From a virus, in the IMG/VR virus record IMGVR_UViG_3300044742_000097, positions 6,146 to 70,145 of that record: 64,000 nt of DNA. One strand, given 5' to 3'. Within the stretch, counting starts at the first letter, position 1. Each line of letters opens with the position of its first letter. The notes beneath the pieces were generated by a model, which was given only the letters and a program-made list of their open reading frames with translations, made no database searches and was not told the origin of the DNA. The translations under genes were made by a program, and so were the position numbers. Below, piece by piece: positions 4 to 59,496 of the stretch.

Positions 4-414
4 TTAGTGTTGTGCTCCTCTGAGTGCGGCCTTGAGATCATCGATCACCGGACCCGACTTCGTAAGCCACGAATCGAGACTGGCCATTGTCGCGTTGAAT
101 CTTCCCTGCTCGGCTGCGTCCACCTTGAAGGCTGCGGTAGCCGCCTCAGCCTCCGTGTATGCCTTCAGTCCGGCTTTCGCGAACGCCCCGCCCTTCTCAG
201 CCGCTGCGATCAATGGAGTCTGAACGTTGTCCGGAAGAGTGTCCGGCGCCAAGAGCGCGGCGATCTGCTCGACTCCAATCGTAACGGACCCATAGGCGGC
301 GAGAGCCTTCTGCTGGACCGTCTCGGCCTGTGCGATCGGATTGAACTGAGCGCACGCCGCGATCGTTACGATCGCCAGCGCTACCCAGACATCCGCGAAT
401 TTACGTAGGACCAT
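4..414 (-). CDS. lipoprotein, spanin-like lysis accessory (putative)
   Basis: Hydrophobic N-terminus with lipobox-like TIAA-C, helical Ala-rich body, next to holin-like and endolysin genes. Confidence 0.55.
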   Translation of the reverse strand: MVLRKFADVWVALAIVTIAACAQFNPIAQAETVQQKALAAYGSVTIGVEQIAALLAPDTLPDNVQTPLIAAAEKGGAFAKAGLKAYTEAEAATAAFKVDAAEQGRFNATMASLDSWLTKSGPVIDDLKAALRGAQH

Positions 415-426
415 GGGCTACTCCTT

Positions 427-837
427 TTATTTACCAGCGAGAACTGTGGAACGAGTACCGACCGGGTTCAAGTCTGCGAGTGAGTTGATCGCATACCCGA
501 TGCTGACGGCGCTGATGAAGTTCAGCGTACCGGTGTCTATCAGCAGGAAGAACGCGATTGAGTTTCCGAACAGAGTCGTAAGCGTCTCCTGCCAGTGGCC
601 CAGAAGGCCGCCGATGGTCGCCGTCGCGCCGTCCATCTTCGCCGCTCCCCACTGCTTGATCAGAGACACGACGGACCCCGCGATCATTAGAGCGTACAGA
701 ACGTATGGATTCGCGAGAGCGCTCTTGATTTCCCCAGTCTGATCCTGCGCGAGTACGCCCCCGGCGAGTAGAACCATAGCCAAGAAGAACATTACCCCAA
801 TACGATCACTCAAAACGTCTTTCCAGTAAGCTTTCAT
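427..837 (-). CDS. holin-like multi-pass membrane protein
   Basis: Several hydrophobic segments; directly downstream of endolysin. Confidence 0.55.
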   Translation of the reverse strand: MKAYWKDVLSDRIGVMFFLAMVLLAGGVLAQDQTGEIKSALANPYVLYALMIAGSVVSLIKQWGAAKMDGATATIGGLLGHWQETLTTLFGNSIAFFLLIDTGTLNFISAVSIGYAINSLADLNPVGTRSTVLAGK

Positions 838-845
838 AAATCCTC

Positions 846-1262
846 CTAAACGACCTTTTCAACGTGTGGCGCATCAAGAAAGGACTCGTCCGGGTCTCGC
901 CCTACTGACCTGAAGTCCCCGTCCCAGTCCATTCCGAATCTAAGTTTGACCCCGTGGCGGTAAGCGACGGCCTGTACCACTCCCATGATACGCCCGAAGG
1001 CGATGAGGTCGTCCCAGTCGATTTTCGTACCTTCTTGGAAGTAAGTAGGCGCGAGGTCAACTGCGAGAGAAGGGATGGCGTTGTGCTTTCCATGTGGCCA
1101 ATGAAGCTTGGTCGCTCCACGCTCGAAAGCGGCCTCCTGTGCCTCTTGACCTCGGTGACCCTCCAAGACCGTAAGGGGAACGATTTTCTCTGCCTCATAA
1201 ACAACTTCCCGCAGATACGAGTCTACGGTTTCTAGACGCTCCATGGCGGCGGTAGACAACAT
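846..1262 (-). CDS. endolysin, M15-family (L-Ala-D-Glu-type) zinc peptidase
   Basis: EGHR..EAQ, KHN..PSLAVD and DAPHVE motifs typical of phage M15 peptidases. Confidence 0.85.
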   Translation of the reverse strand: MLSTAAMERLETVDSYLREVVYEAEKIVPLTVLEGHRGQEAQEAAFERGATKLHWPHGKHNAIPSLAVDLAPTYFQEGTKIDWDDLIAFGRIMGVVQAVAYRHGVKLRFGMDWDGDFRSVGRDPDESFLDAPHVEKVV

Positions 1263-1622
1263 CTATTGCTTCAGCGCCGTAAGGGCTGCCTGTGCCGCCG
1301 ACAGATCGTTCCGAGCCGCCTGAAGATCTCCCGCGTCTCGAACGGTCCAGCAGTCCGGAGACGCACCACACATGTCGCGCTTGAACTCCAAAGCGATGAT
1401 CGCGTTCTGCAGATTCCGAACCGTGGCCGTAATGGTGATGATGTTCGCATCCTGGATCGGCTTGATCTTCTGCTCTAGCTGCTTCTCGATCTCTCCAGCC
1501 AGTGCGGTCTCTGCGATCGGAGCCGCAAATAGCCAGATGGATCCTAGCGTAGCCGCGATAGAAGCCAGGGTACTTACGGATACCGTAATGCCCTGGTCCT
1601 TCGTCATGTTTATTCCCATCAA
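1263..1622 (-). CDS. membrane-anchored coiled-coil protein (lysis module)
   Basis: N-terminal hydrophobic helix, coiled coil, C-x5-C pair; abuts endolysin. Confidence 0.5.
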   Translation of the reverse strand: MMGINMTKDQGITVSVSTLASIAATLGSIWLFAAPIAETALAGEIEKQLEQKIKPIQDANIITITATVRNLQNAIIALEFKRDMCGASPDCWTVRDAGDLQAARNDLSAAQAALTALKQ

Positions 1623-1628
1623 GTGCTC

Positions 1629-3422
1629 CTAGGGGTTGCCCTTCATGTACGTGAAAGTTCCGAGTAAGGACACGCCCTTCTGGTTGGCTGACGTCCAAGT
1701 CGTGCCGGTGCAGAGATTAGTCCCGCCGCGTAAGAATGAGAGGTTCCCGCTGGAGTTGATCGAGATACAGGCGCCTACCTCGTCCACGCTATTGTCCTGA
1801 ACTGCGACGGGATACGAGGCAACCACGCTCGTATTTCCAGGACGTATCGCGGCCGGAACATCCGCCGTCGTTGATGCGAAGGTCGTCGCGTCGCTGGTGC
1901 AGGTTGCGGCGCTACGAGCCACGAGTTCCAGTGTGACGACGTCACCGATCGAGTAATAGTCGAATGTCGCCGTGTAGTCCGTGGTACAGGCGTTCTGGAA
2001 CGTAACTACGAATGAGCCTGTCTTTGGACTCATATCGACGCCGTTCGAGTCTACCGCAGTTGTGTCGATCTCGGTGAGTGAGCCGTCTCCGGCGATCTGA
2101 ACGCGCTTCGTGTTCGACGTGCCGAGCAGCATCGGCTGACCGCTCCCGGTGAACACGGCTACCTGGAATCCTGTCGGTCCGTTCGTCAGAAGAGCCGAGC
2201 TGAGATTGCCGGTCTGCTCGATCGAGATGTGGCGAGTTCCGTCGGTCGCTCGAACGACCGCGCCCGCCGAAGTACCGGCATTGCTATTCAGCGCTTCGAG
2301 TCCGGTGACGACGTTGTTAGAAGACTCAGTCGCCTGGAACGTACCCTGAAGAACTCCAGACGTGATGGTATTCGCCGATCGATTCAGCGTGAGACATTCG
2401 CCGATCGCCGTGCGCGCATCGTCGGAGGTGCAGATCGCGAACACGCCAGCGTCATTGCGAATGTCCCAGATCTTGAGATCCGTACCGGCGTTGCTATCCC
2501 TAAACTGTGCAACGGGGAGCGTCGAGTTCAGCAGGACAGCCGGAACCGATAGCGAGCCCACCGCAGAGAACGTAGCCTGATTCGCGGTGGTCGTGGTCCC
2601 CGTAGCTACGTCGAACTCGACCGCGCCTCCGTTCGTGTTAACTGATAGCGTATTGTCGATAGTCACCGGTCCTTGAATCGAGACTCCCGCCGTCGTACCG
2701 AAGGTGATTCCGCCGGACGTGAAGGCCACCACGTTCGTGCCGCCAGCGAGAATATTCACGCCGTTCGCGGCGGGATGACGGAGCCCGGTATCTGGATCAC
2801 CGACGAATGCGTAGGACGCGGTACTAATGGCCCCGTCGCCGGTGAAGATGTGACCAGCGGAGGTTAGATCATCACTCGCGGCTATGTACGTGAGTCCGGC
2901 GTCTCCGGCGAATGCTCCCATCGCGTTGTACTGGACTTGGGTGTCGGCTCCGGCTGCGGGCGTAGATGCTGCCGCCCAGGTACCATCACCCCTCCAAAAC
3001 GTAGAACCACTCGCCAAAGTTCCGCTATTGAGATTGGTAATGGGAAGGTTGCCCGTGACGCCGTTCGCCAAATTAACCTGCGCCCACGCCGGATTGTTCG
3101 AAGCCCCCGTATTCGAGATGTACCGCGTAGCGGATGTATTCTTTGCCAGAGCGGATAGGGTGTTCACCCCCGAAGCAAATAGCGTATCTCCCTGAACAGT
3201 CCCGGGAACCGAACTTCCAGCTCCGCATCCGGTACAACCCCCCATGACCACGAGGGCGTCATTGACGGTGACGCTGCCCGTCCCGTTGACGATGTCGCCG
3301 CGCAGATCCGATTGTCCATTGACCCGGATCGAACTGAATATCGTCGGCGTCTGCGCTTCGAGGATACCCCCGATAGCGAAGCCGAGCGTGACAAGAAGAA
3401 CCTTGTTCCAGTTAATCTTCAT
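1629..3422 (-). CDS. long fibre/receptor-binding-like protein with predicted signal peptide
   Basis: Start at 3422 overlaps upstream stop (ATGA); [24 protein letters not shown]; Gly/Thr/Ser-rich fibre motifs ([14 protein letters not shown]); C-terminal head-like domain; 8 Cys. Confidence 0.7.
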
Positions 3423-3883
3423 TGCTTTACCCACCGTTGAATGACGCCGTCATAGATGAAGAGTGCTCCGCACCGAGGAGGTACGATGAGGTCTCCGTTG
3501 ATTGCAAAGCGATTCGCCGCTGTCGAGCCCGCCGCCTCATTGAGAATCGTTAGTGTGTCGACCAAGTCTCGATTCTGGATCGAGATGACCTTTCCGTCTG
3601 CACCTCCCGTCTTCCCTCCCAGGTCCGTGTCCCCTGTGAGAGTAACAGCCAGCCGAGAGACTGCAGCTATGTCCGTGGCCTCGTTGTTGATCGGACCAGC
3701 TCCCAGGGCGACGAAGGCGGCTCCAGCCCACACTATCGGTCCCGCCAGCGCTGCCTCTCTAATGGCGTCGACAGTAGTCCGTTTCGTAGTACCGGTCTGT
3801 ACGATCGGTACCTGCTCGGTTCCGGACAGCGGCGCATCAGCCGCCGGCAGCCGAGAGATCTTAATTCCAGTAACAGTCGCCAT
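3419..3883 (-). CDS. virion fibre-associated protein
   Basis: N-terminal [22 protein letters not shown] motif common at the start of phage fibre proteins. Confidence 0.6.
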
Positions 3884-3892
3884 GATCTCTCC

Positions 3893-4663
3893 TCAGGGTC
3901 CGGTGACGCGATACATTACCAGGTTGTTCAGGGCGCAGTTACCGACCACGCCGGCCAGCTCCACTCGATACTGGAACGCCGCCGCCGTAAGTCCCGTGAA
4001 GTTCGCCGCAACCGCCCTAGTGTCAAGCGAGGGTGTCCCGCCAGTAGCCACCGCCATACCCCCTGTAGTACCCACCAGCGGACCGATCGCCGTGATCGTA
4101 ATGAGATGCCGGAAGTAGATCTGGTTCGTGCCTCCAGCTCCAAGTATGTCGAACAGAGTCTGCAGAAGCGTCGTGTCGGCGACATCTCTGAGCTGTACGG
4201 CCAGTGCCTGTCCCCCGGATACGCCCGTGAAGCGTGCGGACCCTTCGATAATGAACTGATCTCCTACAGCCGCGGTAGTAGCCGCCGTGGGTATGTTGAT
4301 TGCGTCCCCGACCGAAACCAGAGTCTGATTGCTCTTAGCGAGAACCGCAACCTGCGGTGCCGCTCCCACGGCCGGTGCCCAGGTTCCGTCCGCTCGCAGG
4401 AAGTTGGTCGTGCCTCCCCCGGACGCCGGAACAACACCCTGGGTCGCCGAGTCGAACTGTAGCCCCGGGTCTGTAATGACATCGCCTCCCGCCGCTGCGA
4501 CAGCCGCTGCGACCGCCACCGGGACGATTATGCCAGAGGCCAGGGTAACGAATGCGTTCGGTGTCGTCTGTCGAGAGGTGCCGCCTTGAGAAACGCAGAC
4601 CAGTTCAGAGCCCGCAAGAACTCCGGCCAGTGGCATGTCCGAGTATTTCTGCCCGTCGGTCAT
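3893..4663 (-). CDS. short fibre-like virion protein
   Basis: Similar N-terminal motif (KYSDMP...GSELV.VSQGG) and FLRADGTW fibre motif. Confidence 0.6.
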   Translation of the reverse strand: MTDGQKYSDMPLAGVLAGSELVCVSQGGTSRQTTPNAFVTLASGIIVPVAVAAAVAAAGGDVITDPGLQFDSATQGVVPASGGGTTNFLRADGTWAPAVGAAPQVAVLAKSNQTLVSVGDAINIPTAATTAAVGDQFIIEGSARFTGVSGGQALAVQLRDVADTTLLQTLFDILGAGGTNQIYFRHLITITAIGPLVGTTGGMAVATGGTPSLDTRAVAANFTGLTAAAFQYRVELAGVVGNCALNNLVMYRVTGP

Positions 4664-5067
4664 GCGGCCTCCTCTACGATCATGTCCTCAGCGTCGTCGG
4701 TCAACATACTCTCGTCTCCGTCTGTGAGCATCAAGAAGTCTTCTAGGGTTGCGAACTCGACTTCGATTGGATGATCGCTCTCGGTGAAGATCAGGATTCG
4801 TTCATCGGCCTCGGTGCACAACGCGAAGTAATTGTCGATGTCGTTCGTCAGCGGAGAGTCCGGCCGCGTGAACGGGAGCGAGATGTCCTCCGTCTGTCGA
4901 GCGGGCAAGCGGTAAGGATCAAGAACGTCCAAGTCCGCCAGACAGACGCGAAGCCCCGGTGAATTCGGATCGGGATACAGGTCCTCGATCGAGAACTTCT
5001 CGTGGCACCGGTCGCAGGTCCCCAGCCCGTAGGTCGAGCGTCCGGTCGGATCTAGCCACTGACTCAT
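4660..5067 (-). CDS. small Cys-containing virion/tail protein
   Basis: CDRC...GLRVC...D..DP...RPD pattern seen next to adaptor genes in podovirus-type modules. Confidence 0.55.
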   Translation of the reverse strand: MSQWLDPTGRSTYGLGTCDRCHEKFSIEDLYPDPNSPGLRVCLADLDVLDPYRLPARQTEDISLPFTRPDSPLTNDIDNYFALCTEADERILIFTESDHPIEVEFATLEDFLMLTDGDESMLTDDAEDMIVEEAA

Positions 5068-6113
5068 CGCGTATAGACTCCGATGTTCGGGGTGAGCATG
5101 GTCGAGCTAGTGTCAGACTCCCCATCCCACATGTCACTCCAAGCCGAGGCCGCCTCGATTGGCAGGTTGGGGTCGGGCTTAGCCTCCTTGTCGACCAGCG
5201 AGAGATCGAACCCGAGGTTCAGGACGAGTGCCCGGTATGCGCTCTGTCGGAACTGAATCTCCTGCGCCATCGTCCCTACGTCCTGCACCTGGTACTGGAG
5301 ATACGCCACGAGGTTCCAGAACCGCGAGATCTCCCCCGGCCCGGGCCACATGGTCACGATCTGCTGTGTCCGCTGCTTATTGAGCCAATACGAAGTCGGC
5401 TGCCCGAGCGAGGTCTTGTCGGGTAGACTTGCGTAGTTGTCGAGATTCAACTCGGCCATGTTGGTCTCGCTTGGAGTATTCGCGAGCACCAGCTCCTCGA
5501 CGTTGAGGATCGTACCGCCTGTGGCCTGTAGGCGGTAGTAGGACCACTCCTCCATTCCCTCGACATCGAACCAGAACCACTCGCCGTCTACGACGACCTG
5601 GGCCGTGGCCGTGTAGAAGGTCGTGAAAGCGACCCCGTCATTCGATCCCTGCATCGTATAGCTCCAGGTCCCCGAAGCGCCTGGAAGTATCCCGAACATC
5701 GGAACTCGGGTCGCACCGTCGGTTAGCTGAAGCTGAATCCACCCATTAGCCAGGGTAATGCACTCGGTGGCAAAATCCCCGTCGAACGCATTGTCCGCTG
5801 TACCGGCCGACGACGACCCTGTTCCGGAGAGCCGGTTGATGCGGCGGAGATTGATCTCCATGATGTCCGTTACGCCGACGGGGAGTGGAACCGATTGCCG
5901 GGCTACGTAGAGGGGCAGGATTGTCTTCTGGATCAACCAGAGGGGAATACCTCTGTTCGCCATGGCTGAGAGACGAAGGAACAGCCAGTCATTGGCGACC
6001 TCGATCCGTTCCGGCGTTATCTCCTGCCGGACGATCTTGCAGACGCCGTAGGCGTTGTCTATGACCTTTCGGGTTGAGAACCGAGTAAGTCCGACTGTTC
6101 CAGACGTAGCCAT
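5064..6113 (-). CDS. head-tail adaptor-like protein with inserted discoidin-like domain
   Basis: MATSGT start, ANRG..LW motif, NAFDGD...YYRL insert; position after head genes. Confidence 0.55.
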   Translation of the reverse strand: MATSGTVGLTRFSTRKVIDNAYGVCKIVRQEITPERIEVANDWLFLRLSAMANRGIPLWLIQKTILPLYVARQSVPLPVGVTDIMEINLRRINRLSGTGSSSAGTADNAFDGDFATECITLANGWIQLQLTDGATRVPMFGILPGASGTWSYTMQGSNDGVAFTTFYTATAQVVVDGEWFWFDVEGMEEWSYYRLQATGGTILNVEELVLANTPSETNMAELNLDNYASLPDKTSLGQPTSYWLNKQRTQQIVTMWPGPGEISRFWNLVAYLQYQVQDVGTMAQEIQFRQSAYRALVLNLGFDLSLVDKEAKPDPNLPIEAASAWSDMWDGESDTSSTMLTPNIGVYTR

Positions 6114-6183
6114 GTTTTCTCCTGAAACATCGGTCTACTTAGAACAGCCGACCAGAAGTTGTAAAGTGCCACCTACTCGAAAA

Positions 6184-6588
6184 TCAGCAGCCCCTCAGAC
6201 CCTTGTGTCCCTTCGGGGCCGGAGTATTCACGTGTTTCTTCAGCGCAGAGTCGATCGCCTTTTTGTCCTGGGCGACATCCCCGCCTTTGGCATAGCGCTT
6301 GACTTTTCCGCCCTTCTTCAGGCCCAGTTCCTTCTCCTGCTGACGACGGCGATCGCCCTTCATGATCTCTGCCAGGGACATCTTGTTGTCGTCCTTGGGC
6401 GGGGGCGGGGGTTGCGCCTTGATCTTCGGGTCGGGGTCCTTGGGCTTCTCGACCTTGCCCCCCTCCGCATATCCTGGCCGCTGTCGCTCGTGCGGGCGAA
6501 CCGAGATACGCGGACTGTCGTGCGCCGAGCCCGTAAAGCCGAAGCCTGACGGGAACTCGAAGTCCTTGACGTACTTGGGACCGGACAT
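6184..6588 (-). CDS. small basic internal virion protein with three GG motifs
   Basis: GAGGAG RBS before ATG at 6588; YAEGGKV, LKKGGKV, YAKGGDV. Confidence 0.6.
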   Translation of the reverse strand: MSGPKYVKDFEFPSGFGFTGSAHDSPRISVRPHERQRPGYAEGGKVEKPKDPDPKIKAQPPPPPKDDNKMSLAEIMKGDRRRQQEKELGLKKGGKVKRYAKGGDVAQDKKAIDSALKKHVNTPAPKGHKGLRGC

Positions 6589-6598
6589 GTACTTCTCC

Positions 6599-7279
6599 TC
6601 AGTCTGCGTCGAGTGTGTAAACGAGCGCCGGACCCTGTCCGCTTCCGCCCGTGATTCCCTTGGCCCCCGATGCGGTCCAGCTCGCGGTGCCAGTGCTGCA
6701 AGATGCGGCGGTCGCGAGCGTGTTCGCAAAGGTCATCGTAATGATTCCAGCTGCGTCGAACCGCATACATCCAGTTCCGAGCGATCCGTTATCCGTCACC
6801 GACACGTTCCGAACGAACTCGTTTCGAGCCGGTCGAATCGCCACTGGAAGCTGTGCGGCTGTAGATGCAAAGCTCGTCGTACCACTCGTGCAGCTGAAAT
6901 TGTCGACGACGCGAACGACGACTAGGTTTCCCGTCAACGTGTAATTGAACGTCTGGGTCGCAGGGCTAGGCGACGTACAGTCGCTCGTATTCCACGTGAC
7001 CTCGAACGTCCCGGTGGTCTGCGTGACTCCTCCGGCGGCCGGTGCTTGGAACGTCGGAGCAGATCCAGCGCCATTCGACGTCAGTACCTGAGTCGCAGAG
7101 CCGGGACCAGTGCCGCCGAGAGCGTTCGCACTCGCCTTATACTGGATGGAAAAGTTGGACCCTCCAGGCGCTCCACTGCCGCTCGTCGGTCCCTGAAGTC
7201 CGCCACCTCCAATCTGGGCCCACGCAAATGCAGCCGACAGCGCCAGCGCAAATGAGAGGGGAACGAGGTACTTCTTCAT
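6599..7279 (-). CDS. short fibre/receptor-binding-like protein with signal peptide (paralogue A)
   Basis: MKKYLVPLSFALALSAAFAWA/Q; QVLTSNGAGSAPTFQ shaft motif; head-like domain with 4 Cys. Confidence 0.7.
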   Translation of the reverse strand: MKKYLVPLSFALALSAAFAWAQIGGGGLQGPTSGSGAPGGSNFSIQYKASANALGGTGPGSATQVLTSNGAGSAPTFQAPAAGGVTQTTGTFEVTWNTSDCTSPSPATQTFNYTLTGNLVVVRVVDNFSCTSGTTSFASTAAQLPVAIRPARNEFVRNVSVTDNGSLGTGCMRFDAAGIITMTFANTLATAASCSTGTASWTASGAKGITGGSGQGPALVYTLDAD

Positions 7280-7292
7280 ATCATGTCTCCGG

Positions 7293-7910
7293 TCAGATAA
7301 TCGTGTAGGTGAAAATGCATTGCCAACTTGCGCCAGCCGTGCCGCCCTGCGCCGTGAACTGCATCATCGCTCTGTCGTTGGCGGCGTCAGCCACGATCTG
7401 GGCGCCCTGGGTCTGTGTCGAGAGAAGACTGACGCAGTCGCCGGAGACCTCATAGGCGTTCGCTAGGGCCGAGGCAACCGGAAGCGTCGCGCCTAGCTGC
7501 GTGAATGTCGACGTGGTCGTGATATCTACGGTCGCGGTGCACGAGACGTTAACCACCGAGCCGACCCGCATGTACTGACACGGACCCATCGTCGTGGAGG
7601 TTCCGGCGCCGTCTACGTTCGCGACCGCCGTCAGGGTAGGAGTGTAGTTCCCAGACGCCGTGACGCCACCGGCCGTTGCCTGGAATGTCGGCGCTGACCC
7701 GGCCCCGTTGGAGGTGAGAACCTGCGTCGCCGTTCCCGGACCGGTGCCCCCCAACACAATCCCGTTCTTGTACTGAATCGAGAAGTTGCTTCCCGCCGGA
7801 GCCCCGGAGCTGCTTGTCGGACCCTGCAGACCTCCGCCCCCAATCTGAGCCCACGCAATCGCAGCCGAGACGGCCAGAGCCAGCGCGGTAGAAATGATGT
7901 ACTTATTCAT
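7293..7910 (-). CDS. short fibre/receptor-binding-like protein with signal peptide (paralogue B)
   Basis: MNKYIISTALALAVSAAIAWA/Q; N-terminal part nearly identical to paralogue A; different head with 4 Cys. Confidence 0.7.
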   Translation of the reverse strand: MNKYIISTALALAVSAAIAWAQIGGGGLQGPTSSSGAPAGSNFSIQYKNGIVLGGTGPGTATQVLTSNGAGSAPTFQATAGGVTASGNYTPTLTAVANVDGAGTSTTMGPCQYMRVGSVVNVSCTATVDITTTSTFTQLGATLPVASALANAYEVSGDCVSLLSTQTQGAQIVADAANDRAMMQFTAQGGTAGASWQCIFTYTII

Positions 7911-8606: not shown

Positions 8607-9413
8607 CTAGGAACCGAGATAGTAAGACACGTTGACGCGGTTCAGAACGGCCAATCCCGCCGCTGGCATGACGACAGTCGTCGCCGTATTCGCCAACAAG
8701 CTCTTCAACGGCGTTGTAGGACTGTAGTTCAGATCGAGAGACGAGCCACCCGCCACCATCGCGTTTCCATAGCTCCACGCCGGGTTGCCGGGAAGATTCG
8801 TGCTTGTGGCGACGAGCGTCGCTGTTCCCGCCAGAACAGCAGTCGCGTTCCTCGTCAGATGGATGTTCGTGATGTAGTGGAACAGTCCCGCGACCGCCGG
8901 AAGCGTGGCCGTAGCCGCCGTGTTCGCCGCCGCCGTTGACGTGACGTGCAAGATAGACGGAACTGGTCGAGTGTAGATCAGATAGTCTGCGCGAGTGGCG
9001 CGCGCTGCGACCGTGATGCCTCCAGACGTGAAGGCCGAGACTCGCAGCCTGACTCGCCGGAACCCCGCGACACTCACGAGATACTGACCGGCGAGCGTAG
9101 TCGCTACCGTCACGGAGGCGACGTACTGCTCGGCGACCAGCACTCCGGCGAGCGACTGAGCGAACACGAACATCGGAAGCGCGAAGTAGTTGGTTCCGTC
9201 TAGCGTGGCCTCGACGACGAACGTCAGAACGCCCGCAGCACTCCGAACGTCGAACGCCGCGTTCACCGCGCCGTTGAGGTCCATAATGACTTCAGCGTTG
9301 ACGGCGTTGAGCGTGTTGGTCGCGGTACGACCGTCGGTAACAACTCCACCGTTGACCTGGTCGGCGAACCCGACGAGGATCTCGTTGGCGCGTGCGTCGT
9401 ATAGTTGTGCCAT
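8607..9413 (-). CDS. virion structural protein (beta-sandwich-like)
   Basis: VEATLDGTNYF...RVRLRVSAFTSG pattern; operon position. Confidence 0.55.
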   Translation of the reverse strand: MAQLYDARANEILVGFADQVNGGVVTDGRTATNTLNAVNAEVIMDLNGAVNAAFDVRSAAGVLTFVVEATLDGTNYFALPMFVFAQSLAGVLVAEQYVASVTVATTLAGQYLVSVAGFRRVRLRVSAFTSGGITVAARATRADYLIYTRPVPSILHVTSTAAANTAATATLPAVAGLFHYITNIHLTRNATAVLAGTATLVATSTNLPGNPAWSYGNAMVAGGSSLDLNYSPTTPLKSLLANTATTVVMPAAGLAVLNRVNVSYYLGS

Positions 9414-10303
9414 TACGCAGCCCTCATGTAGTTAATTACCAAGGGGCCAGCGGACGGCGTAAGCGTCTGAAGCTGGAAGGTGAACGATCCCGTCCCTGGA
9501 ACAGCCTGCATGCTGAGCGGGTCGATGCTGTCCGACGCGTTCGCCTGAGTCTCGGGCACTCCAGCCAGACCAACCATGATTCTGTCCGTGGGAAGCACCG
9601 CAGCATCCACGACGCTGACAGACTGAAAGCGACTCGCCGGAAATGGAAGCACGACCGTTGCCTGCGTAATAGATCCGCCTCCCCCTCCACTACCCGCCGG
9701 ACCCGTGGCACCGGGAGGTCCACGCTCACCCTCTTGACTGAGAGAGTCCATGTCCGACAAAAAGAAGAGTGCAGGTCCGGCTGGTCCTGCTGCTCCCTGG
9801 GCTCCAGCCGCGCCGGGATTGCCTGGAGGGCCGGGAAAGCTAATAGCATCTCCCTCTGAGCTACCGAAGCCCCCATCTGAGAGAAAGAACTGACCAGAGC
9901 CGTCTGGCCCAGATGGGCCGGGAGGTCCCTGCGGTCCCGGAGGGCCTGGGAAGCTGATGGCGTCGCTGTCCGAGCCTCCAAGTCCGAAGGCGCTGTCGGA
10001 CATCATAAACTGACCGGAGGTGCTGTCGGCTCCCGCTGGCCCTGGAGGGCCGATTGGACCGGGCTCTCCTCTCATCCCCGGAGCACCGTCCTCCCCGAAG
10101 ATGTCCCCGTCTCCCAGCATAAACAGTGCGATACCGGGAAGGCCCTGATCTCCTTGGGGTCCAGGTGGGCCGGGACCTCCTCCACCTGGAGACCAGAAGG
10201 TGTCGTAGTTCCGAGCAGTCAGCTTGGTGAGAACGTCCCCCGGGTCTCCGAGGGGCGGGATCGGCACCGCAACGATGCCGCCTGTTCCCATTCCAGATTG
10301 CAT
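9413..10303 (-). CDS. collagen-like fibre protein
   Basis: Multiple G-X-Y runs (GPPGPQGPPGPSGPDG) interrupted by repeated hydrophobic/acidic units. Confidence 0.8.
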   Translation of the reverse strand: MQSGMGTGGIVAVPIPPLGDPGDVLTKLTARNYDTFWSPGGGGPGPPGPQGDQGLPGIALFMLGDGDIFGEDGAPGMRGEPGPIGPPGPAGADSTSGQFMMSDSAFGLGGSDSDAISFPGPPGPQGPPGPSGPDGSGQFFLSDGGFGSSEGDAISFPGPPGNPGAAGAQGAAGPAGPALFFLSDMDSLSQEGERGPPGATGPAGSGGGGGSITQATVVLPFPASRFQSVSVVDAAVLPTDRIMVGLAGVPETQANASDSIDPLSMQAVPGTGSFTFQLQTLTPSAGPLVINYMRAA

Positions 10304-11986: not shown

Positions 11987-12904
11987 CTAGAGACCCGGTG
12001 TCCCCCAGTTGTCGCGGGGATCGGTCCAGCCCGGAATGTACCGTTCCGTGCTCTTGTAGCGCATCGAGTCGGTCTCGAAGTCACCCTCCATCGCCTTCTG
12101 GAGTCCACGGCGCATCATGAGCTGAACACCGCGGCGGACATTCCCGTTCTGGATCCACCAGGCTGTGGTCGAGGTAACGCGGCTGAGAACCGCGACTCCC
12201 TGCGACAGCATTCCGGTAGTGTTGATCGGGTTGATGTCGTTGTTCGCCGCACCCGTTCGCAACACGCTCTTGATGATGACTTCCGCCTGGAACATGTTGC
12301 TCGGGGAAACGATGAACTTCACGGGGTTGAGCCGGACCTTCTTGCCGTTGGCATCGACGGCGCTTCGGATCTGGATCAACATCTGCTCGGCCGAGGTCTG
12401 GCTGAGCGCCGCCGCCGTCGTCAACAGGTTTGAATAGACGCCACTCACCAGAGGGTGGCTGAGGCTATTCATCGGTTGACCGTCGCCGCCGGGGAACGCT
12501 GCGTTGAACGCGCGGTTGAAAATCTGCGCGACCAGCGTCTCCTTCGTCTCGATCATGGACTGCGCGAGGTGCTCCGAGTAGATCTTGCCGATGGAGATGT
12601 GATCTCCGTCTTCGACCAAGATCCGCGTCAGAGCGAACGCCAAGCCGAAGACACGGTAGATGTACCGCTGTCTGAACAGCTCGCCGCCCTGTCCGTAAGT
12701 GACGGGGTCACCGTCCGGAACTTCGGGCGCGGCGTTGAAGCCGTACAGGACCGGCTCCTCGTGGTAGGCGCGCTTGATGCCGTCTCTCTGCTTGGCAACG
12801 TCCTTCCACTCGTCCTTGCGCTGATCGTAGATACCGTCGAACACTTCGTTGAGAATGGGCTCGACCACCGACCGGAAGTCGGTACTACGCATTGGATTGG
12901 CCAT
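11987..12904 (-). CDS. major capsid protein (HK97 fold)
   Basis: 305 aa; FNRAF..FPGGDG, DFETDSMRYK..ERY..GWTDPR..WGTPG motifs; follows scaffold and cement genes. Confidence 0.88.
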   Translation of the reverse strand: MANPMRSTDFRSVVEPILNEVFDGIYDQRKDEWKDVAKQRDGIKRAYHEEPVLYGFNAAPEVPDGDPVTYGQGGELFRQRYIYRVFGLAFALTRILVEDGDHISIGKIYSEHLAQSMIETKETLVAQIFNRAFNAAFPGGDGQPMNSLSHPLVSGVYSNLLTTAAALSQTSAEQMLIQIRSAVDANGKKVRLNPVKFIVSPSNMFQAEVIIKSVLRTGAANNDINPINTTGMLSQGVAVLSRVTSTTAWWIQNGNVRRGVQLMMRRGLQKAMEGDFETDSMRYKSTERYIPGWTDPRDNWGTPGL

Positions 12905-16164: not shown

Positions 16165-18831
16165 CTAGCCTTTAGGGCGTCCGCCCGAGGGATTTTTGTT
16201 TGCTCCCGTACCGGTGGAGACCTTTACTTTCTCCGCTGACTGGATTTCGGCCGCTGCGACTCGAAGCGCGGTCAGGTTGTCCTGAGTGTTCCGACGTTCC
16301 TCCGAGCTCAGCTCGGCGGCAGCACGCTGATCTTCGGCCCGTTCCTGCGTAGCGATCTCCTGGAGTCGAGCAACCAGCTCCTGAGCCTGCCTCGCATTCT
16401 CTTGGGCCTCTTGGATAGCCACCTCCCGCTCGCTTGCCGAAAGCTTTGTGAACTCCAGTTGACTCTTCGCCTGTCGATCGGCGGCCTTCGACTGGAAGTC
16501 CAATATCTTGTTCTCTTTGGTAAGACCCAGTTTCTCTTTCTCGCGCTGGTCTTTCATCTGGTCTGCCTTCGCCTTGCGTTCGACCTCGGCACGCTTGTCC
16601 GGATCGCTCGGGAGGGTCTGAGGCGTGTACTGCTGGATAAGTGTCTGCGCCTGTTGTATGACCTGCGGGAGAACTCCAAAGACCGCAGCCTCTCTCTGGA
16701 GGATTCCATTGCTCGCCGCCGCCAGAACCCGGTCCAGATCTTTGCGAGTCTCCGGATCGCGCTCCTTCATTATCAGGGTCATACCGTCCTCATCCACTTC
16801 GAGCGTCGCTCGGGTCAGCTCGTAGAATTCGTTTGCGTACCAGAGGACGAGATGTTCTTTCAGGTGGTCCAGAGCGGGCGGGAGGAAGACTGGAGCAACA
16901 ATCGGAAGCTGCCCGAAGAGAGGCGACATGATCGCCTGAACCAGGACGGTGATATGTGCCAGATGGTCCTGTAACGGGAACGCGGTCACCGGCCGACCAA
17001 GCGCCATGGCGACGTTCTCGTTGACCTGGTTCATCTCCTCCGGGGTAGGCTTCGGTACCAAGAACCGGTCTGGATTTGGTATCTTGGCTCTCTCCAGCAG
17101 GAACTTCTCGGTCTCTCTGACGTCGTACACGCCTGGGAGCGCGGCCGCGCGGTCCGCTATGATCTGTGCCTGTGCGATGCGCTGAACGTCGCTGAAGATC
17201 TCCGGATCGGCAGTCGGGATGCAATCAAGCGGACCCTCGAAGTCCGATCGCTGTGCCAGGACCTCTCCCACGTCATTCTTCAACTCGTCCTCGGTCAGAT
17301 ACATCTTGTTGATGCGATGGAGGATACGAATGAAATACGACATCGAGTGGAAGAGCCGCAAGTGAATTGCGGACATGACCTTCATGCCCTCTTCGATCAG
17401 CGCGAGAGTCGTGCCGACCGGGAGGTTCTTGTTGTCTTCCGATAGCTTGTCGAGAGCGACGTGGATCGCCTGTCTGCCAGCGTCTGTAAGGAACCCAAGA
17501 AGTTCCATCAGCGTCGCGGACGGCCCTGCGAACGGGATCGGCATCAGGAGCTTGCGGATGTCCGCGTCCCCTGCGACTCCGCCCTTGATCTCGATAACCT
17601 GCGTGGCGTTGACCGTCTCGTTCTGACCGCTGAAGTTCGCGCCCTTCAGACGTGCGAGTGTCGGAATGTTCTGAATATGCGCCGAATCGAGCAGTGCGCG
17701 CAGTGCGCCGGTCGCGGCGCCCGCAAGCGAGCCGATCGCCTGTCCAAGGCCGATACCCTGCGCTCCACGCCATTGGAAGAAGATCCACTCGACCATCCAC
17801 TGCATGCGGTCGTAGTTTGGATCTTCCTCCTCCCAGTTGCGTGTAATCGAAACGACCTTGCTGCTCGGATGATCGATCGAGATCAGGTAAGGTGCGATGC
17901 CGTACTGTGGCTCCAGGTTTTCATAAACCGAAATCTCGCAAACATTCCGCTGGCCGTCGGAGTTCAGAGGATCGATCTTCTTGCCCTCGACCTTCTGCGC
18001 TGCCTTCTCCGACTCTGTTTCTTCAGGTGGAGTACTGGTCGGGACCGAATCGATGTTTCGATACATGCCCTCGCGAATGCGGGTCTCGAACTCGTCGGTG
18101 GTGACGGGCTCCCAATAGCATTGGCGCTCGGCCGTGTAGTAGTTCGAGGCTGCGGCCGGAATGCTGACGTAATCGAGCGGGACGAAGGTGGGAACCGGAC
18201 GGCGACGACGCTTGGAGTAGTCTGGAATGAGTCGGAGATACATCGCGCCGCCTAGAGGCAGCTGCGAGAGGAGTTGTTCCAGTTCCGATCTGAACTCTGG
18301 CATCTGGAAGATACATTGCCAGTTCATGTAATTTTTCTTGCGTTCGGCCTTCCGTAGCCGCTCGGGCTCGACGTTCTCGCCAGGGACGAACATCTTCACC
18401 GGTCCGTTTGGAGGCATCAGCTCGCGGATCGCCCGACTGGCGAAGTCGAGACAGGCTTCCAGAAGCATCGGATGGACGACTCGGCTCGCACCCTGGAACT
18501 GTGCGCCGCCGGGAGCCTCCTTGCCCAGGCCCGTTCGTTTCTGCGCCTCGGCGTATGCCTTGTCTCGATCCTTCCGCGCCTCCTTGTCTCGATCGACCTG
18601 TTCGAGGAGCCGCGTGGCCATGGAGCTTAGGGTGGTTTCTTGGAACTGACCGGCGATGTTGTCGTAGAAGCCTGCCACCTGGTCGGCGGCCTCGTCCGAC
18701 TCCTCACTAGCGATCTTCGCGATGGCTCCACCATCCTCGGTCATCTCGATATCGTCCGGAGGTGGCTCCTCCCCGATCGTAGCGATGATGCCCCCGTTCG
18801 CCCGCTGGATAGGCTCGATCAGATTTGCCAT
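16165..18831 (-). CDS. portal protein with long C-terminal coiled coil
   Basis: 888 aa downstream of TerL; GASRVVHPMLLEA, VGTTLALIE, SAIH.RL, QRIAQAQ motifs. Confidence 0.88.
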   Translation of the reverse strand: MANLIEPIQRANGGIIATIGEEPPPDDIEMTEDGGAIAKIASEESDEAADQVAGFYDNIAGQFQETTLSSMATRLLEQVDRDKEARKDRDKAYAEAQKRTGLGKEAPGGAQFQGASRVVHPMLLEACLDFASRAIRELMPPNGPVKMFVPGENVEPERLRKAERKKNYMNWQCIFQMPEFRSELEQLLSQLPLGGAMYLRLIPDYSKRRRRPVPTFVPLDYVSIPAAASNYYTAERQCYWEPVTTDEFETRIREGMYRNIDSVPTSTPPEETESEKAAQKVEGKKIDPLNSDGQRNVCEISVYENLEPQYGIAPYLISIDHPSSKVVSITRNWEEEDPNYDRMQWMVEWIFFQWRGAQGIGLGQAIGSLAGAATGALRALLDSAHIQNIPTLARLKGANFSGQNETVNATQVIEIKGGVAGDADIRKLLMPIPFAGPSATLMELLGFLTDAGRQAIHVALDKLSEDNKNLPVGTTLALIEEGMKVMSAIHLRLFHSMSYFIRILHRINKMYLTEDELKNDVGEVLAQRSDFEGPLDCIPTADPEIFSDVQRIAQAQIIADRAAALPGVYDVRETEKFLLERAKIPNPDRFLVPKPTPEEMNQVNENVAMALGRPVTAFPLQDHLAHITVLVQAIMSPLFGQLPIVAPVFLPPALDHLKEHLVLWYANEFYELTRATLEVDEDGMTLIMKERDPETRKDLDRVLAAASNGILQREAAVFGVLPQVIQQAQTLIQQYTPQTLPSDPDKRAEVERKAKADQMKDQREKEKLGLTKENKILDFQSKAADRQAKSQLEFTKLSASEREVAIQEAQENARQAQELVARLQEIATQERAEDQRAAAELSSEERRNTQDNLTALRVAAAEIQSAEKVKVSTGTGANKNPSGGRPKG

Positions 18832-24056: not shown

Positions 24057-24327
24057 ATGGTAGTCTCCGGGTTTCGTAGCCGTAGTATACGCGAGGCGGG
24101 GAGTCAAGTGTCACAGTCTCCTCCATGGGGTCCTATAATATAGGGAGGGTGGAGGTCGTTTTATAGTGTCAGAGGGTTGCTTTTTGGTCATACGGGGCTG
24201 CACGGGTCCTGCGCACGACCACCCTGGGTGCAAACATGTGGTGAGTGGGGTGGGGGTCGTTGCATCCTGCAATTATCCAATCACGAGATCGTCCCAACCA
24301 CGGGAACACGTCACACCACAGACAGAC

Positions 24328-43988: not shown

Positions 43989-44423
43989 GTGACAAGAATA
44001 TCCCGCGACGAGATGCTGATGGACATCGCATTAGTCGTAAAGCTGAGAAGCACGTGTCTTCGACGTCAGGTCGGAGCCGTCCTTGCCGTTGACGGTCGTG
44101 TTCTATCCTCCGGATACAACGGAGCGCCCGGCGGCCTTCCGCATTGCATTCCTCAGACATGCAGTGACGAGCGGCCGTGTATCGATACCGTCCATGGCGA
44201 GGCTAATGCGATCGCCTTTGCCGCCCGCTACGGAATCCGGATTGAGGGATCCACGCTTTACACCACGGCATCCCCTTGTCGGGCCTGCGCAATCCTCCTT
44301 ATCAACGCTGGCATCATTCGCGTGGTCTATGACGAACGCTACCGAGATACTACGCCGATCGAAGTGATGGAAAAGGCCGGAGTCGTCGTCGAGCGTTGGG
44401 TTCCAGTCGATGCCCTCCCTTAA
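43989..44423 (+). CDS. dCMP deaminase
   Basis: RSTC.RRQVGAV, GYNG, HGEANA, PC..C. Confidence 0.92.
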   Translation: MTRISRDEMLMDIALVVKLRSTCLRRQVGAVLAVDGRVLSSGYNGAPGGLPHCIPQTCSDERPCIDTVHGEANAIAFAARYGIRIEGSTLYTTASPCRACAILLINAGIIRVVYDERYRDTTPIEVMEKAGVVVERWVPVDALP

Positions 44424-59495: not shown

Positions 59496-59496
59496 G

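What the first reader, a model, noticed from the sequence alone, without database searches (positions are those of the whole stretch)
1629..7910. Phage fibre/receptor-binding-like proteins with Sec-type signal peptides and paired cysteines
Seen: three genes in the virion operon (1629-3422, 6599-7279, 7293-7910) start with a basic/hydrophobic/cleavage-type signal (LEA/Q, AWA/Q, AWA/Q). They continue with fibre-shaft motifs ([23 protein letters not shown]) and end in related head-like domains (G.F...Y..[IVT]G.[VL]V...[LV]P). They carry 8, 4 and 4 Cys. Established: tailed-phage virions assemble in the reducing cytoplasm and their fibres normally lack signal peptides. Inference: these proteins are exported and oxidatively folded in the periplasm. 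They may join the virion at or after lysis, or act as soluble receptor blockers or decoys. Either would be an unusual extracytoplasmic route.
Basis: partly seen in the sequence, partly recalled or inferred. Interest (0 to 1): 0.85.

Follow-up and report, generated by a model that had tools for sequence, protein, structure and literature searches.

The report
Sec-exported phage receptor-binding fibre proteins
An uncultivated tailed phage encodes three fibre-tip (receptor-binding type) proteins that carry classic export signals and paired cysteines, so part of its attachment machinery seems to be made outside the cytoplasm, which is not how tailed-phage fibres are normally thought to be made.

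Summary
Three minus-strand genes (1629-3422, 6599-7279, 7293-7910) lie in the late virion block of a complete ~70-kb phage genome. Each starts with a textbook Sec/signal-peptidase-I type N-terminus ending A-x-A before Gln. All three share a C-terminal head domain.

The P0002 model (pLDDT 84.6) matches viral fibre heads. A homotrimer is supported (score 0.89, best control 0.01).

The pattern is a family trait, not chance:
- Of 137 proteins with this head, 131 pass a crude signal test.
- Of 136 fibre relatives without the head, 19 pass.
- Two cysteine pairs co-occur, the first in 109 domains together, 2 singly and 23 not at all.
- 130 of 135 heads have an even number of Cys.
- The five clearly signal-less heads lack these cysteines.

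Export and oxidative folding are therefore well supported, though only by inference. No SignalP, coordinates or experiment was available.

The fate of the proteins after export is open. Genomic slot replacement, shared fibre modules and a conserved gene pair with a signal-less mini-fibre favour late docking onto virions. An exported non-virion role is nearly as likely.

No cultured phage carries the family, and four full-text searches for signal-bearing or DsbA-dependent tail fibres found no description.

The parts
1629..3422 (-). P0001, a 597-aa signal-bearing fibre protein. It has a signal, a CTGC motif, a shaft module, a central part and a head, with 8 Cys.
3354..3422 (-). P0001 predicted signal peptide (aa 1-23), with predicted cleavage LEA/Q.
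   Evidence: The signal is kept in relatives P0118, P0157 and L092.
2961..3209 (-). P0001 shaft module (aa ~72-154). It is 70-80% identical to modules of signal-less tail fibres and includes FWRGDGTW.
1647..2090 (-). P0001 C-terminal head domain (aa ~445-592) with 4 Cys.
6599..7279 (-). P0002, a 226-aa signal-bearing mini-fibre: signal, Gly-rich linker, one shaft repeat and a head.
7217..7279 (-). P0002 predicted signal peptide (aa 1-21), with predicted cleavage AWA/Q.
6608..7039 (-). P0002 head domain (aa 81-224). It has a fibre-head fold and Cys 101/130 and 171/194.
7293..7910 (-). P0003, a 205-aa signal-bearing mini-fibre. Its N-terminal 80 aa are about 80% identical to P0002. The head is divergent and has 4 Cys.
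7848..7910 (-). P0003 predicted signal peptide (aa 1-21), with predicted cleavage AWA/Q.
3419..3883 (-). A 154-aa signal-less mini-fibre with the common fibre N-terminal motif. Its stop overlaps the P0001 start. It is a candidate cytoplasm-made docking partner.
3893..4663 (-). A 256-aa signal-less fibre-like protein with the same N-terminal motif and FLRADGTW.
9413..10303 (-). A 296-aa collagen-like, signal-less fibre protein in the same variable slot.
6184..6594 (-). A basic, low-complexity protein that closes the variable slot. Its family is conserved in relatives both with and without signal-bearing fibres.
4..1622 (-). Lysis block directly downstream of P0001. It holds a membrane-anchored coiled-coil protein (1263-1622), an endolysin (846-1262), a multi-pass holin-like protein (427-837) and a lipobox protein (4-414). 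This implies a host with two membranes.
   Evidence: The spanin and holin roles are inferred from sequence features only.
11987..12904 (-). Major capsid protein, which anchors the late virion block.

Best explanation
The three genes encode true Sec substrates. I propose five steps.

1. A signal peptide of about 21-23 residues takes each protein across the inner membrane. Signal peptidase I cuts after A-x-A and leaves an N-terminal Gln. (Inferred; my estimate 0.85.)
2. In the periplasm the C-terminal head folds with two disulfide bonds. P0001 adds a CTGC motif and one further pair. (Inferred from covariation; 0.8.)
3. The proteins form homotrimers with a short triple shaft and a fibre-head of the kind viruses use to bind receptors. 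(Model only; 0.8.)
4. They are made late, together with the virion genes.
5. Most likely, the holin, endolysin and spanin-like proteins encoded just downstream merge the cytoplasm and periplasm at lysis. The oxidised trimers then dock onto finished particles. P0001 would dock through the signal-less 154-aa mini-fibre whose gene it overlaps. The phage would thus gain disulfide-hardened receptor-binding tips that could not be oxidised in the cytoplasm. (This last step is inferred from gene context only; 0.4-0.45.)

The confidence given is for the whole chain.
For: **Signal**
- The n/h/c layout is visible in the sequences.
- There is no usable downstream start.
- The signal is kept in 9 of 10 first homologues and 139 of 156 proteins.
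- Of 140 proteins with the hydrophobic segment, 101 have Gln as the first polar residue. Among those, -1 is Ala in 86, and -3 is V in 35, A in 30, L in 12 and I in 9.
- Orthologues of P0001 differ in the signal's letters but keep its character, and they keep the mature start QTPTIF.

**Disulfides**
- Profile columns 145 and 172 both hold Cys in 109 domains, one alone in 1+1, neither in 23.
- The second pair gives the table [[15,23],[3,94]].
- Cys per head: none in 2, one in 2, two in 23, three in 3, four in 101, six in 4.
- On a tree with the Cys columns masked, the first pair changes about 18-19 times. It goes the same way in 5 of 5 independent contrasts on supported branches.
- The 5 clearly signal-less heads lack the conserved Cys.

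**Link between signal and head**
- The counts are 131/6 with the head against 19/117 without it.

**Fold and trimer**
- AF2 pLDDT 84.6.
- Foldseek matches Zamilon Zav_19 (E 2.7e-6), the lactococcal phage p2 and TP901-1 receptor-binding proteins, reovirus sigma1 and Listeria phage PSA gp15. BFVD matches phage minor tail proteins and receptor-binding proteins.
- Trimer score 0.89 against a best control of 0.01. The runs agree in at least 89% of contacts and partner pLDDT is at least 89. The mark was reached by 20 of 30 solved pairs of one chain and 1 of 23 single chains. Counts are rough because my own alignment and three copies were used, and a pass may rest on likeness to solved fibre heads.

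**Virion docking**
- In relatives L013, L092, L093, L096 and L098, the variable slot after the capsid genes holds only signal-bearing fibre genes. Other relatives hold signal-less fibres there.
- Shaft modules are shared at 70-80% identity with signal-less tail fibres.
- The signal-bearing fibre of L001 ends in Peptidase_S74 (E 2.4e-8).
- In family members the predicted mature N-terminus begins with the motif that forms the very N-terminus of signal-less fibres.
- All 4 loci with a full-length relative of the 154-aa gene (the window, L092, L093, L140) have a signal-bearing fibre gene directly after it. The genes overlap as ATGA in the window and in L093.
- The exported proteins are the genome's only copies of this head.
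- There is no excess of promoter-like or terminator-like sites within the block.
Against: - No signal-peptide predictor, no model coordinates and no experiment were available.
- The signal test is my own crude rule, and it gives false positives.
- The family profile included the signal columns, which may enrich signal-bearing hits.
- The tree contrasts are few: 5 pairs, p 0.06. The second Cys pair is less clean.
- Mature P0002 and P0003 show no recognisable anchor domain, only a Gly-rich linker and one shaft repeat.
- Most relatives lack such genes: 71 of the 80 capsid-related loci kept, and Caulobacter phage RW. They are therefore not core virion parts.
- The phage's holin-like membrane protein also has a hydrophobic stretch ending LAQ. 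That ending alone does not prove cleavage.
- Docking after lysis has no described precedent in tailed phages in the four literature searches on this question (for Q-rule signals). It would have to beat dilution.
Confidence: 0.4

Rival explanations
1. The proteins are exported and oxidised as above but never join the virion. They would be soluble periplasmic or released trimers that bind an envelope glycan or protein of the host. One role would be to mask receptors on infected cells and debris so that progeny are not lost. Another would be to exclude other phages, or to alter the cell surface.
For: - All the evidence for export, disulfides and a binding-type head applies here too.
- The genes are accessory: 9 of 80 related loci have them.
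- P0002 and P0003 lack a clear anchor domain.
- Phages of Porphyromonas gingivalis are reported to encode five unknown proteins with signal peptides exposing Gln. The authors read these as surface modifiers (PMC10367356, passages read).
- Exported receptor blockers such as T5 Llp and P1 Sim exist. This is recalled, not checked here.
Against: - The head has no signal-less copy in the genome that a decoy could mimic.
- The genes sit inside the late virion block without promoters of their own above chance.
- In five relatives they replace the slot's signal-less fibre.
- One relative carries the S74 maturation domain typical of virion fibres.
- P0001-type genes are paired, and in two cases overlap, with a signal-less mini-fibre gene.
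- A periplasmic protein cannot reach a receptor on the outer face before lysis.
Confidence: 0.35
2. The hydrophobic N-terminus is not cleaved. It would act as a signal-anchor, holding the trimer on the periplasmic face of the inner membrane by a Gly-rich tether. There it could work as part of lysis timing or as an envelope sensor.
For: - The AF2 model shows residues 2-23 as one helix followed by a flexible Gly-rich stretch.
- The phage's holin-like protein has a similar first hydrophobic stretch ending LAQ and is clearly multi-pass.
- P0001 lies directly upstream of the lysis genes.
Against: - The small -1 residue and aliphatic or small -3 residue are kept across 101 proteins. There is no reason for that in an anchor.
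- The hydrophobic core is short, about 14-15 residues, which is typical of signals.
- The segment's position is 18-31 residues from the start in 99 of 101.
Confidence: 0.12
3. The proteins stay in the cytoplasm and are ordinary virion fibres. The hydrophobic N-terminus would be a structural or membrane-piercing element of the particle, and the cysteines would oxidise only after release.
For: - Tailed-phage fibres are normally cytoplasmic: 106 of 117 shaft-module relatives fail the signal test.
- The genes lie in the virion block.
Against: - A positively charged start, an uncharged core and A-x-A are what the Sec pathway and signal peptidase I recognise. Such a protein would be expected to be exported (established knowledge).
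- The same head without a signal lacks the Cys.
- Even Cys counts and pairwise co-variation argue for bonds made as part of folding.
Confidence: 0.06

Closest known systems
Receptor-binding fibre heads of lactococcal phages p2 and TP901-1, Listeria phage PSA gp15, reovirus sigma1 and virophage Zamilon Zav_19
   Same: The P0002 model matches these heads by fold (Foldseek E 2.7e-6 to 3e-2). A trimer with contacts on the three-fold axis is predicted. A short shaft lies under the head. Zav_19 is described as a fibre-head fold used by unrelated viruses for receptor binding (abstract of bioRxiv 10.1101/2023.01.23.525297).
   Different: Sequence identity is 6-20%, and there is no Pfam, PHROG or NCBIfam match. 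As far as I recall, none of those proteins has a signal peptide, and they are not known for two conserved disulfides. Here 131 of 137 heads carry a signal.
Ordinary tailed-phage tail fibres with the shaft repeats ...QVLTSNGAG.AP.FQ... and ...[24 protein letters not shown]...
   Same: The same modules occur at up to 70-80% identity. The same N-terminal motif occurs in several family members. The S74 chaperone domain is present in the L001 relative.
   Different: Those fibres begin directly with Met and a docking motif. By my crude test, 106 of 117 lack a signal. By eye, 62 of 66 lack one.
Filamentous phage (Inovirus) g3p attachment protein
   Same: A phage attachment protein made with a Sec signal, oxidised in the periplasm and then built into the particle. 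This is recalled textbook knowledge. One search lists reviews on filamentous phage secretion, seen as search listings only.
   Different: Inoviruses assemble by extrusion through the envelope without lysis. This phage has an HK97-type capsid, portal, terminase, ejection proteins and a lysis cassette. The folds are unrelated.
Sec-exported phage proteins of other roles: signal-peptide or SAR endolysins, and exclusion or receptor-blocking proteins such as T5 Llp and P1 Sim
   Same: These are phage proteins that use the host Sec pathway. Signal-bearing endolysins are described in PMC8878798 (passages read). Llp and Sim are recalled.
   Different: They are enzymes or small lipoproteins, not trimeric fibre-head proteins. 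They are not encoded as fibre-slot replacements in the virion block.
Signal-peptide proteins of Porphyromonas gingivalis phages that follow the Bacteroidetes Q-rule
   Same: These are phage genes of unknown function whose predicted signal cleavage exposes Gln (PMC10367356, passages read). Here Gln is the first polar residue after the segment in 101 of 140 (72%). The mean for Bacteroidetes is 71% (PMC5837995, section 16 passages).
   Different: Those proteins are not described as fibres. Relatedness was not tested. The host of the present phage is unknown, and its capsid is closest to Caulobacter phages (66.6% identity).

Membership tests
Sec / signal peptidase I (SPI) signal peptide | Positively charged n-region at the start | tested here: met
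   P0001, P0002 and P0003 have 2, 2 and 1 Lys before the core.
Sec / signal peptidase I (SPI) signal peptide | Uncharged hydrophobic h-region of about 7-15 residues within the first 30 | tested here: met
   The best 10-residue Kyte-Doolittle windows score 2.3-2.8 and hold no charged residue.
Sec / signal peptidase I (SPI) signal peptide | Small residues at -1 and -3 before the cut | tested here: met
   The endings are LEA/Q, AWA/Q and AWA/Q. In the family, -1 is Ala in 86 of 101 and -3 is V/A/L/I in 86 of 101.
Sec / signal peptidase I (SPI) signal peptide | Score from a trained predictor (SignalP, DeepTMHMM) | not testable with these tools
Only my own rule was used.
Sec / signal peptidase I (SPI) signal peptide | Export and cleavage shown experimentally | not testable with these tools
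   This needs fusions, N-terminal sequencing or mass spectrometry.
Lipoprotein (SPII) signal | Lipobox with Cys at +1 | tested here: not met
   Position +1 is Gln in all three, and there is no Cys before residue 63, 101 or 111.
Tat signal | Twin-arginine motif in the n-region | tested here: not met
   None of the three N-termini has RR. Another ORF of the window (52079-52546) does have one.
Type IX secretion cargo | C-terminal sorting domain (Por_Secre_tail type) | tested here: not met
   P0001-P0003 give no NCBIfam or Pfam hit at E up to 0.05 or 0.1 apart from chance-level rows.
Viral fibre-head receptor-binding proteins | Beta-barrel head fold at the C-terminus | tested here: met
   Foldseek PDB and BFVD matches for the P0002 model. 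P0001 and P0003 are assigned by profile homology only.
Viral fibre-head receptor-binding proteins | Homotrimer | tested here: met
   Score 0.89 against a best control of 0.01. The mark was reached by 20 of 30 solved pairs of one chain and 1 of 23 single chains. This is a model only, and it may lean on solved fibre heads.
Viral fibre-head receptor-binding proteins | Presence on the virion and binding of a host receptor | not testable with these tools
   No cultured relative carries the family. 4 of 4 tblastn queries found no relevant match in 50,697 phage records.
Disulfide-bonded extracytoplasmic domain | Cysteines conserved and lost in pairs, with even counts | tested here: met
Disulfide-bonded extracytoplasmic domain | Paired Cys side by side in the structure | not testable with these tools
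   Structure prediction gives no coordinates.

The most novel reading that the evidence does not exclude
A tailed, lytic phage finishes its virion in two compartments. The capsid, tail and small adaptor fibres are made in the cytoplasm. The receptor-binding tips are exported by Sec, trimmed to an N-terminal Gln, and locked by disulfides in the periplasm. They snap onto the particles only when the holin opens the inner membrane. Given 616 profile hits at E up to 1e-10, this would be a widespread but unstudied assembly route in uncultivated phages.
Probability: 0.35. Interest if true: 0.92.

Novelty: new variant of a known kind. Interest (0 to 1): 0.78.

Why it matters
Tail fibres and receptor-binding proteins decide which hosts a phage infects. 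They are taken to fold and assemble in the reducing cytoplasm. A large family of fibre-head proteins that instead goes through the Sec pathway and relies on periplasmic disulfide formation has several consequences.

- If the proteins are virion parts, it adds a new step to tailed-phage morphogenesis: assembly across compartments at lysis.
- If they are not, it defines a new class of exported phage factors built from receptor-binding parts.
- It ties phage fitness to host Sec, signal peptidase, Dsb and perhaps glutaminyl cyclase functions.
- It warns that annotation pipelines, and receptor-binding-protein engineering by cytoplasmic expression, would mishandle such proteins.

The question can be tested directly with a few cloned genes.

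Tried and rejected
**Ideas tested and dropped**
- Type IX secretion sorting domain, lipoprotein signal and Tat signal for the three proteins: none found.
- A special link between the signal-bearing fibres and the basic protein encoded just downstream (6184-6594). At first it looked associated: 13 loci by tblastn, including the signal-bearing ones. The fuller slot survey shows the same family, with an N-terminus like YVKDF.FP...GF[ST]GS, closing the slot in many relatives that have no signal-bearing fibre, such as L100, L105, L110 and L112. I dropped this idea.
- The C-terminal part of the 154-aa protein as a marker for signal-bearing neighbours outside this lineage. In L174, L175, L180 and L197 it sits inside long signal-less fibres with no signal-bearing gene after it. 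The pairing holds only for the 4 loci of this lineage.
- Close relatives of the P0001 C-terminus in IMG/VR: none.

**Host and relatives**
- The genome-contig scan returned mostly the generic shaft motif in MAGs of many phyla. Only L070 reached into the head region.
- The Gln-after-signal habit fits Bacteroidetes-like hosts, but the paper compared few phyla. The capsid is closest to Caulobacter phages. The host remains unknown.
- Atlas look-alikes were all labelled viral but scored under 0.9, so they are leads only.
- Cultured phages: P0002, P0072 and P0065 gave no match. P0095 gave one 25%-coverage match in an uncultured Caudoviricetes record.

**Literature**
- Four full-text searches on this question and the passages read gave no description of Sec-signal tail fibres in tailed phages. 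A fifth search only looked up the Zav_19 structure match.
The gene lists of PMC10367356 could bear on whether its five proteins are fibre-like.

- The look-up of encoding contigs was not called because it is closed.
- The second structure job, the last homologue search and the VIA-align searches were not used.

Full report
**What the window is**

The window is bases 6146-70145 of a single 70,145-base contig. The first 25 bases of that contig recur 203 bases before its end, and its last 100 bases recur at its start. It therefore looks like a complete phage genome with a terminal repeat or circular overlap. The repeat is not identical over 200 bases.

The minus strand of window 1-24,000 carries a late block:
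- terminase (18841-20460) and portal (16165-18831);
- an HK97-type major capsid protein (11987-12904; PHROG head families);
- a run of fibre-like genes;
- a lysis block with an endolysin (846-1262, phrog_465, E 1.3e-20).

Around the endolysin lie a membrane-anchored coiled-coil protein, a multi-pass holin-like protein and a lipobox protein. Their roles are inferred from sequence features. Together they point to a host with two membranes.

Past the lysis genes, across the contig ends, come virion structural proteins, a tail fibre protein and a DNA ejection protein. The plus strand carries a replication module:
- family A DNA polymerase fused to a UDG domain;
- prim-pol;
- ThyX;
- dCMP deaminase;
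- a PD-(D/E)XK nuclease;
- an SNF2 helicase.

No integrase was found among the 20 proteins scanned.

The capsid protein is 66.6% identical to those of Caulobacter phages RW, GB2A, RLK and KcrB. It has 548 relatives in IMG/VR.

**The observation**

- P0001 starts at an ATG that overlaps the upstream stop as ATGA.
- P0002 starts behind a GGAGA, and P0003 starts 8 nt after the upstream stop.
- The next in-frame start codons are at residues 58, 115 and 52, inside conserved mature sequence.

Each N-terminus has one or two lysines, an uncharged hydrophobic core of about 14-15 residues, and LEA, AWA or AWA followed by Gln. The quoted fibre motifs and the Cys counts of 8, 4 and 4 are correct.

The heads are related:
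- P0001 residues 445-590 align with the P0002 head at 33% identity (E 4e-12).
- P0002 and P0003 are 56% identical over 150 residues, mostly in the first 80.
- A family profile hits these three ORFs and nothing else in the genome.

None of the three matches Pfam, PHROGs or NCBIfam.

**Is the signal real?**

No trained predictor was on hand, so I relied on conservation.

In the first homologue search, 9 of the 10 sequences fetched begin with the same kind of segment ending A/G-Q. The tenth (P0013) begins like a classical fibre.

A profile of 11 sequences was searched against 1.84 billion representatives. It found 3619 proteins at E up to 0.001 and 616 at E up to 1e-10. Of the 156 proteins then in hand, 139 pass my crude rule.

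Among the 140 with the hydrophobic segment, 101 have Gln as the first polar residue. In those 101:
- -1 is Ala in 86;
- -3 is V in 35, A in 30, L in 12 and I in 9;
- Gln sits at position 18-31 in 99.

That is the signal peptidase I pattern. There is no reason for a mere membrane anchor to keep it.

Orthologues of P0001 (P0118, P0157 and the L092 gene) have different letters in the segment but the same character. They share the same mature start, QTPTIF or QSPQIF.

There are two caveats. My rule gives false positives on mis-started ORFs. The search profile also contained the signal columns. However, most of the 150 listed hits matched only the head part of the profile and still carry a signal.

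**The signal goes with the head and the head's cysteines**

The shaft modules are common property of phage fibres.
- P0001's roughly 80-residue module is 70-80% identical to modules in thousands of proteins. These bear Pfam domains typical of tail fibres, and only 11 of 117 pass the signal test.
- The QVLTSNG motif lies in ordinary signal-less fibres in 62 of 66 viral loci, judged by eye.

The head behaves differently. Across 273 proteins, head and signal occur together in 131, head alone in 6, signal alone in 19 and neither in 117. One of the six head-alone proteins is a truncated signal.

Within 135 head domains:
- two profile columns both hold Cys in 109, one alone in 1+1, neither in 23;
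- a second pair shows the same tendency, [[15,23],[3,94]];
- 130 of 135 heads have an even number of Cys, and 101 have four.

I built a tree with the Cys columns masked. On it the first pair changed state about 18-19 times. In the 5 independent contrasts on supported branches, both columns went the same way every time. A cross-pair control gave 1.4 the same way, 0.5 opposite and 3.1 unchanged. Five contrasts cannot reach p 0.05.

The five clearly signal-less heads (P0013, P0069, P0100, P0170, P0179) lack the conserved cysteines.

P0001 also has a CTGC motif soon after the predicted cut. Related motifs follow the signal in other family members. Together this is the signature of a domain that folds in an oxidising compartment.

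I could not measure Cys-Cys distances, because no coordinates are returned.

**What the proteins look like**

An AlphaFold2 model of P0002, built with 113 aligned sequences, has mean pLDDT 84.6. It shows:
- residues 2-23 as a helix;
- residues 24-44 as a low-confidence Gly-rich linker;
- the rest as beta strands.

Foldseek against the PDB finds the following:
- virophage Zamilon Zav_19 (E 2.7e-6);
- the receptor-binding proteins of lactococcal phages p2 and TP901-1;
- reovirus sigma1;
- a siadenovirus fibre head;
- Listeria phage PSA gp15.

Zav_19 is described as a fibre-head fold shared by unrelated viruses for receptor binding (abstract only). BFVD gives uncultured phage proteins, actinophage minor tail proteins and giant-virus fibre proteins.

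Three copies of residues 40-226 gave a score of 0.89 against a best control of 0.01. The runs agree in at least 89% of contacts and partner pLDDT is at least 89. Contacts lie on the three-fold axis at 66:66, 116:116 and 220:220. The mark was reached by 20 of 30 proteins solved as pairs of one chain and 1 of 23 solved as single chains. These counts hold only roughly here, and the pass may rest on likeness to solved fibre heads.

**Where the genes sit in relatives**

Of the 80 capsid-related IMG/VR loci kept, 9 carry a signal-bearing fibre gene downstream of the capsid gene. These are L092, L093, L013, L095, L096, L098, L125, L132 and L140, with capsid identity 70-88%. L125 and L132 needed their starts corrected. 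Caulobacter phage RW has none.

In 43 loci that hold both flanking genes, a variable slot follows the capsid-proximal genes.
- In most loci it holds a signal-less fibre. This is either a collagen-like fibre, like window 9413-10303, or an 800-900 residue fibre with a classical N-terminus.
- In L013, L092, L093, L096 and L098 the only fibre genes in the slot are signal-bearing ones.
- The window, L125 and L132 have both kinds.

The L001/L096 protein (678 aa) has a signal at one end and a Peptidase_S74 maturation domain at the other (E 2.4e-8, above the cut-off).

A second site lies just upstream of the lysis genes and holds the P0001 type. In all 4 loci with a full-length relative of the 154-aa signal-less gene 3419-3883 (the window, L092, L093, L140), a signal-bearing fibre gene follows directly. 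The genes overlap as ATGA in the window and in L093.

The 154-aa protein starts with the motif (...KIS.LP...L.G.E..P..Q.G...) that opens hundreds of signal-less fibre genes. In several family members that same motif starts right after the predicted cut.

The block shows no excess of promoter-like or terminator-like sites.

**Reading**

Export, cleavage before Gln, periplasmic disulfide formation and trimeric fibre-head architecture form a coherent chain. It is well supported, but it remains inferred.

For what happens next I weigh two fates. Several points favour late docking onto particles once the lysis proteins join the compartments:
- the replacement of signal-less fibres in the slot;
- the shared fibre modules and the S74 domain;
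- a mature N-terminus equal to that of classical fibres;
- the conserved pairing with a cytoplasmic mini-fibre;
- the absence of any signal-less copy of the head that a decoy could imitate.

That fibres can be added to finished particles in lysates is classical T4 knowledge. I recall this and did not check it here.

Against docking:
- There is no clear anchor domain in P0002 and P0003.
- The genes are accessory.
- There is no precedent.
- There are no virion data.

An exported, non-virion binding factor is nearly as likely. It could act as a receptor mask, an exclusion factor or a surface modifier. A report on Porphyromonas gingivalis phage genes with Q-rule signals fits that reading. An uncleaved anchor or a cytoplasmic fate is unlikely.

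**Host and novelty**

Gln follows the segment in 72% of the family. This resembles the 71% mean reported for Bacteroidetes (passages read). That paper compared only a few phyla, and this phage's capsid is nearest to Caulobacter phages, so the host stays open.

No cultured phage holds the family. Atlas look-alikes are labelled viral, with scores under 0.9. Four full-text searches on the question found no description of Sec-signal fibres in tailed phages.

I rate this a new variant of a known kind: receptor-binding fibre proteins routed through Sec and disulfide formation. If docking at lysis is shown, it would be a new assembly route.

Noticed in passing
window 52079-52546 (+): A 155-aa ORF starts with a twin-arginine export signal (NRRGFLK...). 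Pfam TAT_signal gives E 1.5e-4 and 21.9 bits, just under the 22.7 cut-off. The phage may use the Tat route as well.
   Followed up: partly
window 23019-24107 (-): A 362-aa ORF has a fibronectin type III domain (E 2e-8). From an internal Met it has a signal-like segment ending AIQA before Gln. This would be a fourth exported protein that exposes Gln.
   Followed up: partly
window 6184-6594 (-), and the N-termini of 54836-55297, 55287-59555 and 59497-62346 (-): These are basic, low-complexity proteins that repeat a short Gly-Gly motif of the type [YF]A.GG.V or KGGKV. The 6184 family keeps an N-terminus like YVKDF.FP...GF[ST]GS and closes the variable fibre slot in many relatives. The meaning of the motif is unknown.
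   Followed up: partly
window 3224-3235 (-), P0001 residues 63-66; also L098 3805-4656: A C-T-G-C motif lies shortly after the predicted signal cut. It recurs as G[TS]C[TM]GC in several family members. It could be an inter-chain disulfide staple of the trimer.
   Followed up: no
L001 9923-11959 (same contig as L096 12589-14625): A 678-aa protein combines an N-terminal signal with a C-terminal Peptidase_S74 self-cleaving chaperone domain. If exported, that domain would have to work in the periplasm.
   Followed up: partly
L075, L079, L082, L086 (candidate-phyla MAG contigs); proteins P0236, P0248, P0252, P0264, P0268: Proteins with an N-terminal membrane or signal segment followed by ...TPNPGHDF... 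and then the same fibre shaft module occur in Saccharibacteria and Parcubacteria-type MAGs. These may be cell-surface or prophage proteins.
   Followed up: no
window 44410-46965 (+): The family A DNA polymerase carries an N-terminal uracil-DNA glycosylase superfamily domain in the same ORF.
   Followed up: no
genome C1 1-203 and 69943-70145 (outside and at the end of the window): The contig ends repeat over about 203 bases, though not perfectly. The genome is probably complete. The tail genes continue from the window's start across the contig ends to window 54836-63879.
   Followed up: partly
window 427-837 (-): The first hydrophobic stretch of the holin-like multi-pass protein also ends in LAQ. 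The same is true in the L001 relative. This ending is therefore not by itself proof of cleavage.
   Followed up: no
L067 16861-17199 (Caulobacter phage RW gp080c): The cultured relative has a 112-aa ORF with a signal-like start in its variable slot, but no fibre-head gene.
   Followed up: no
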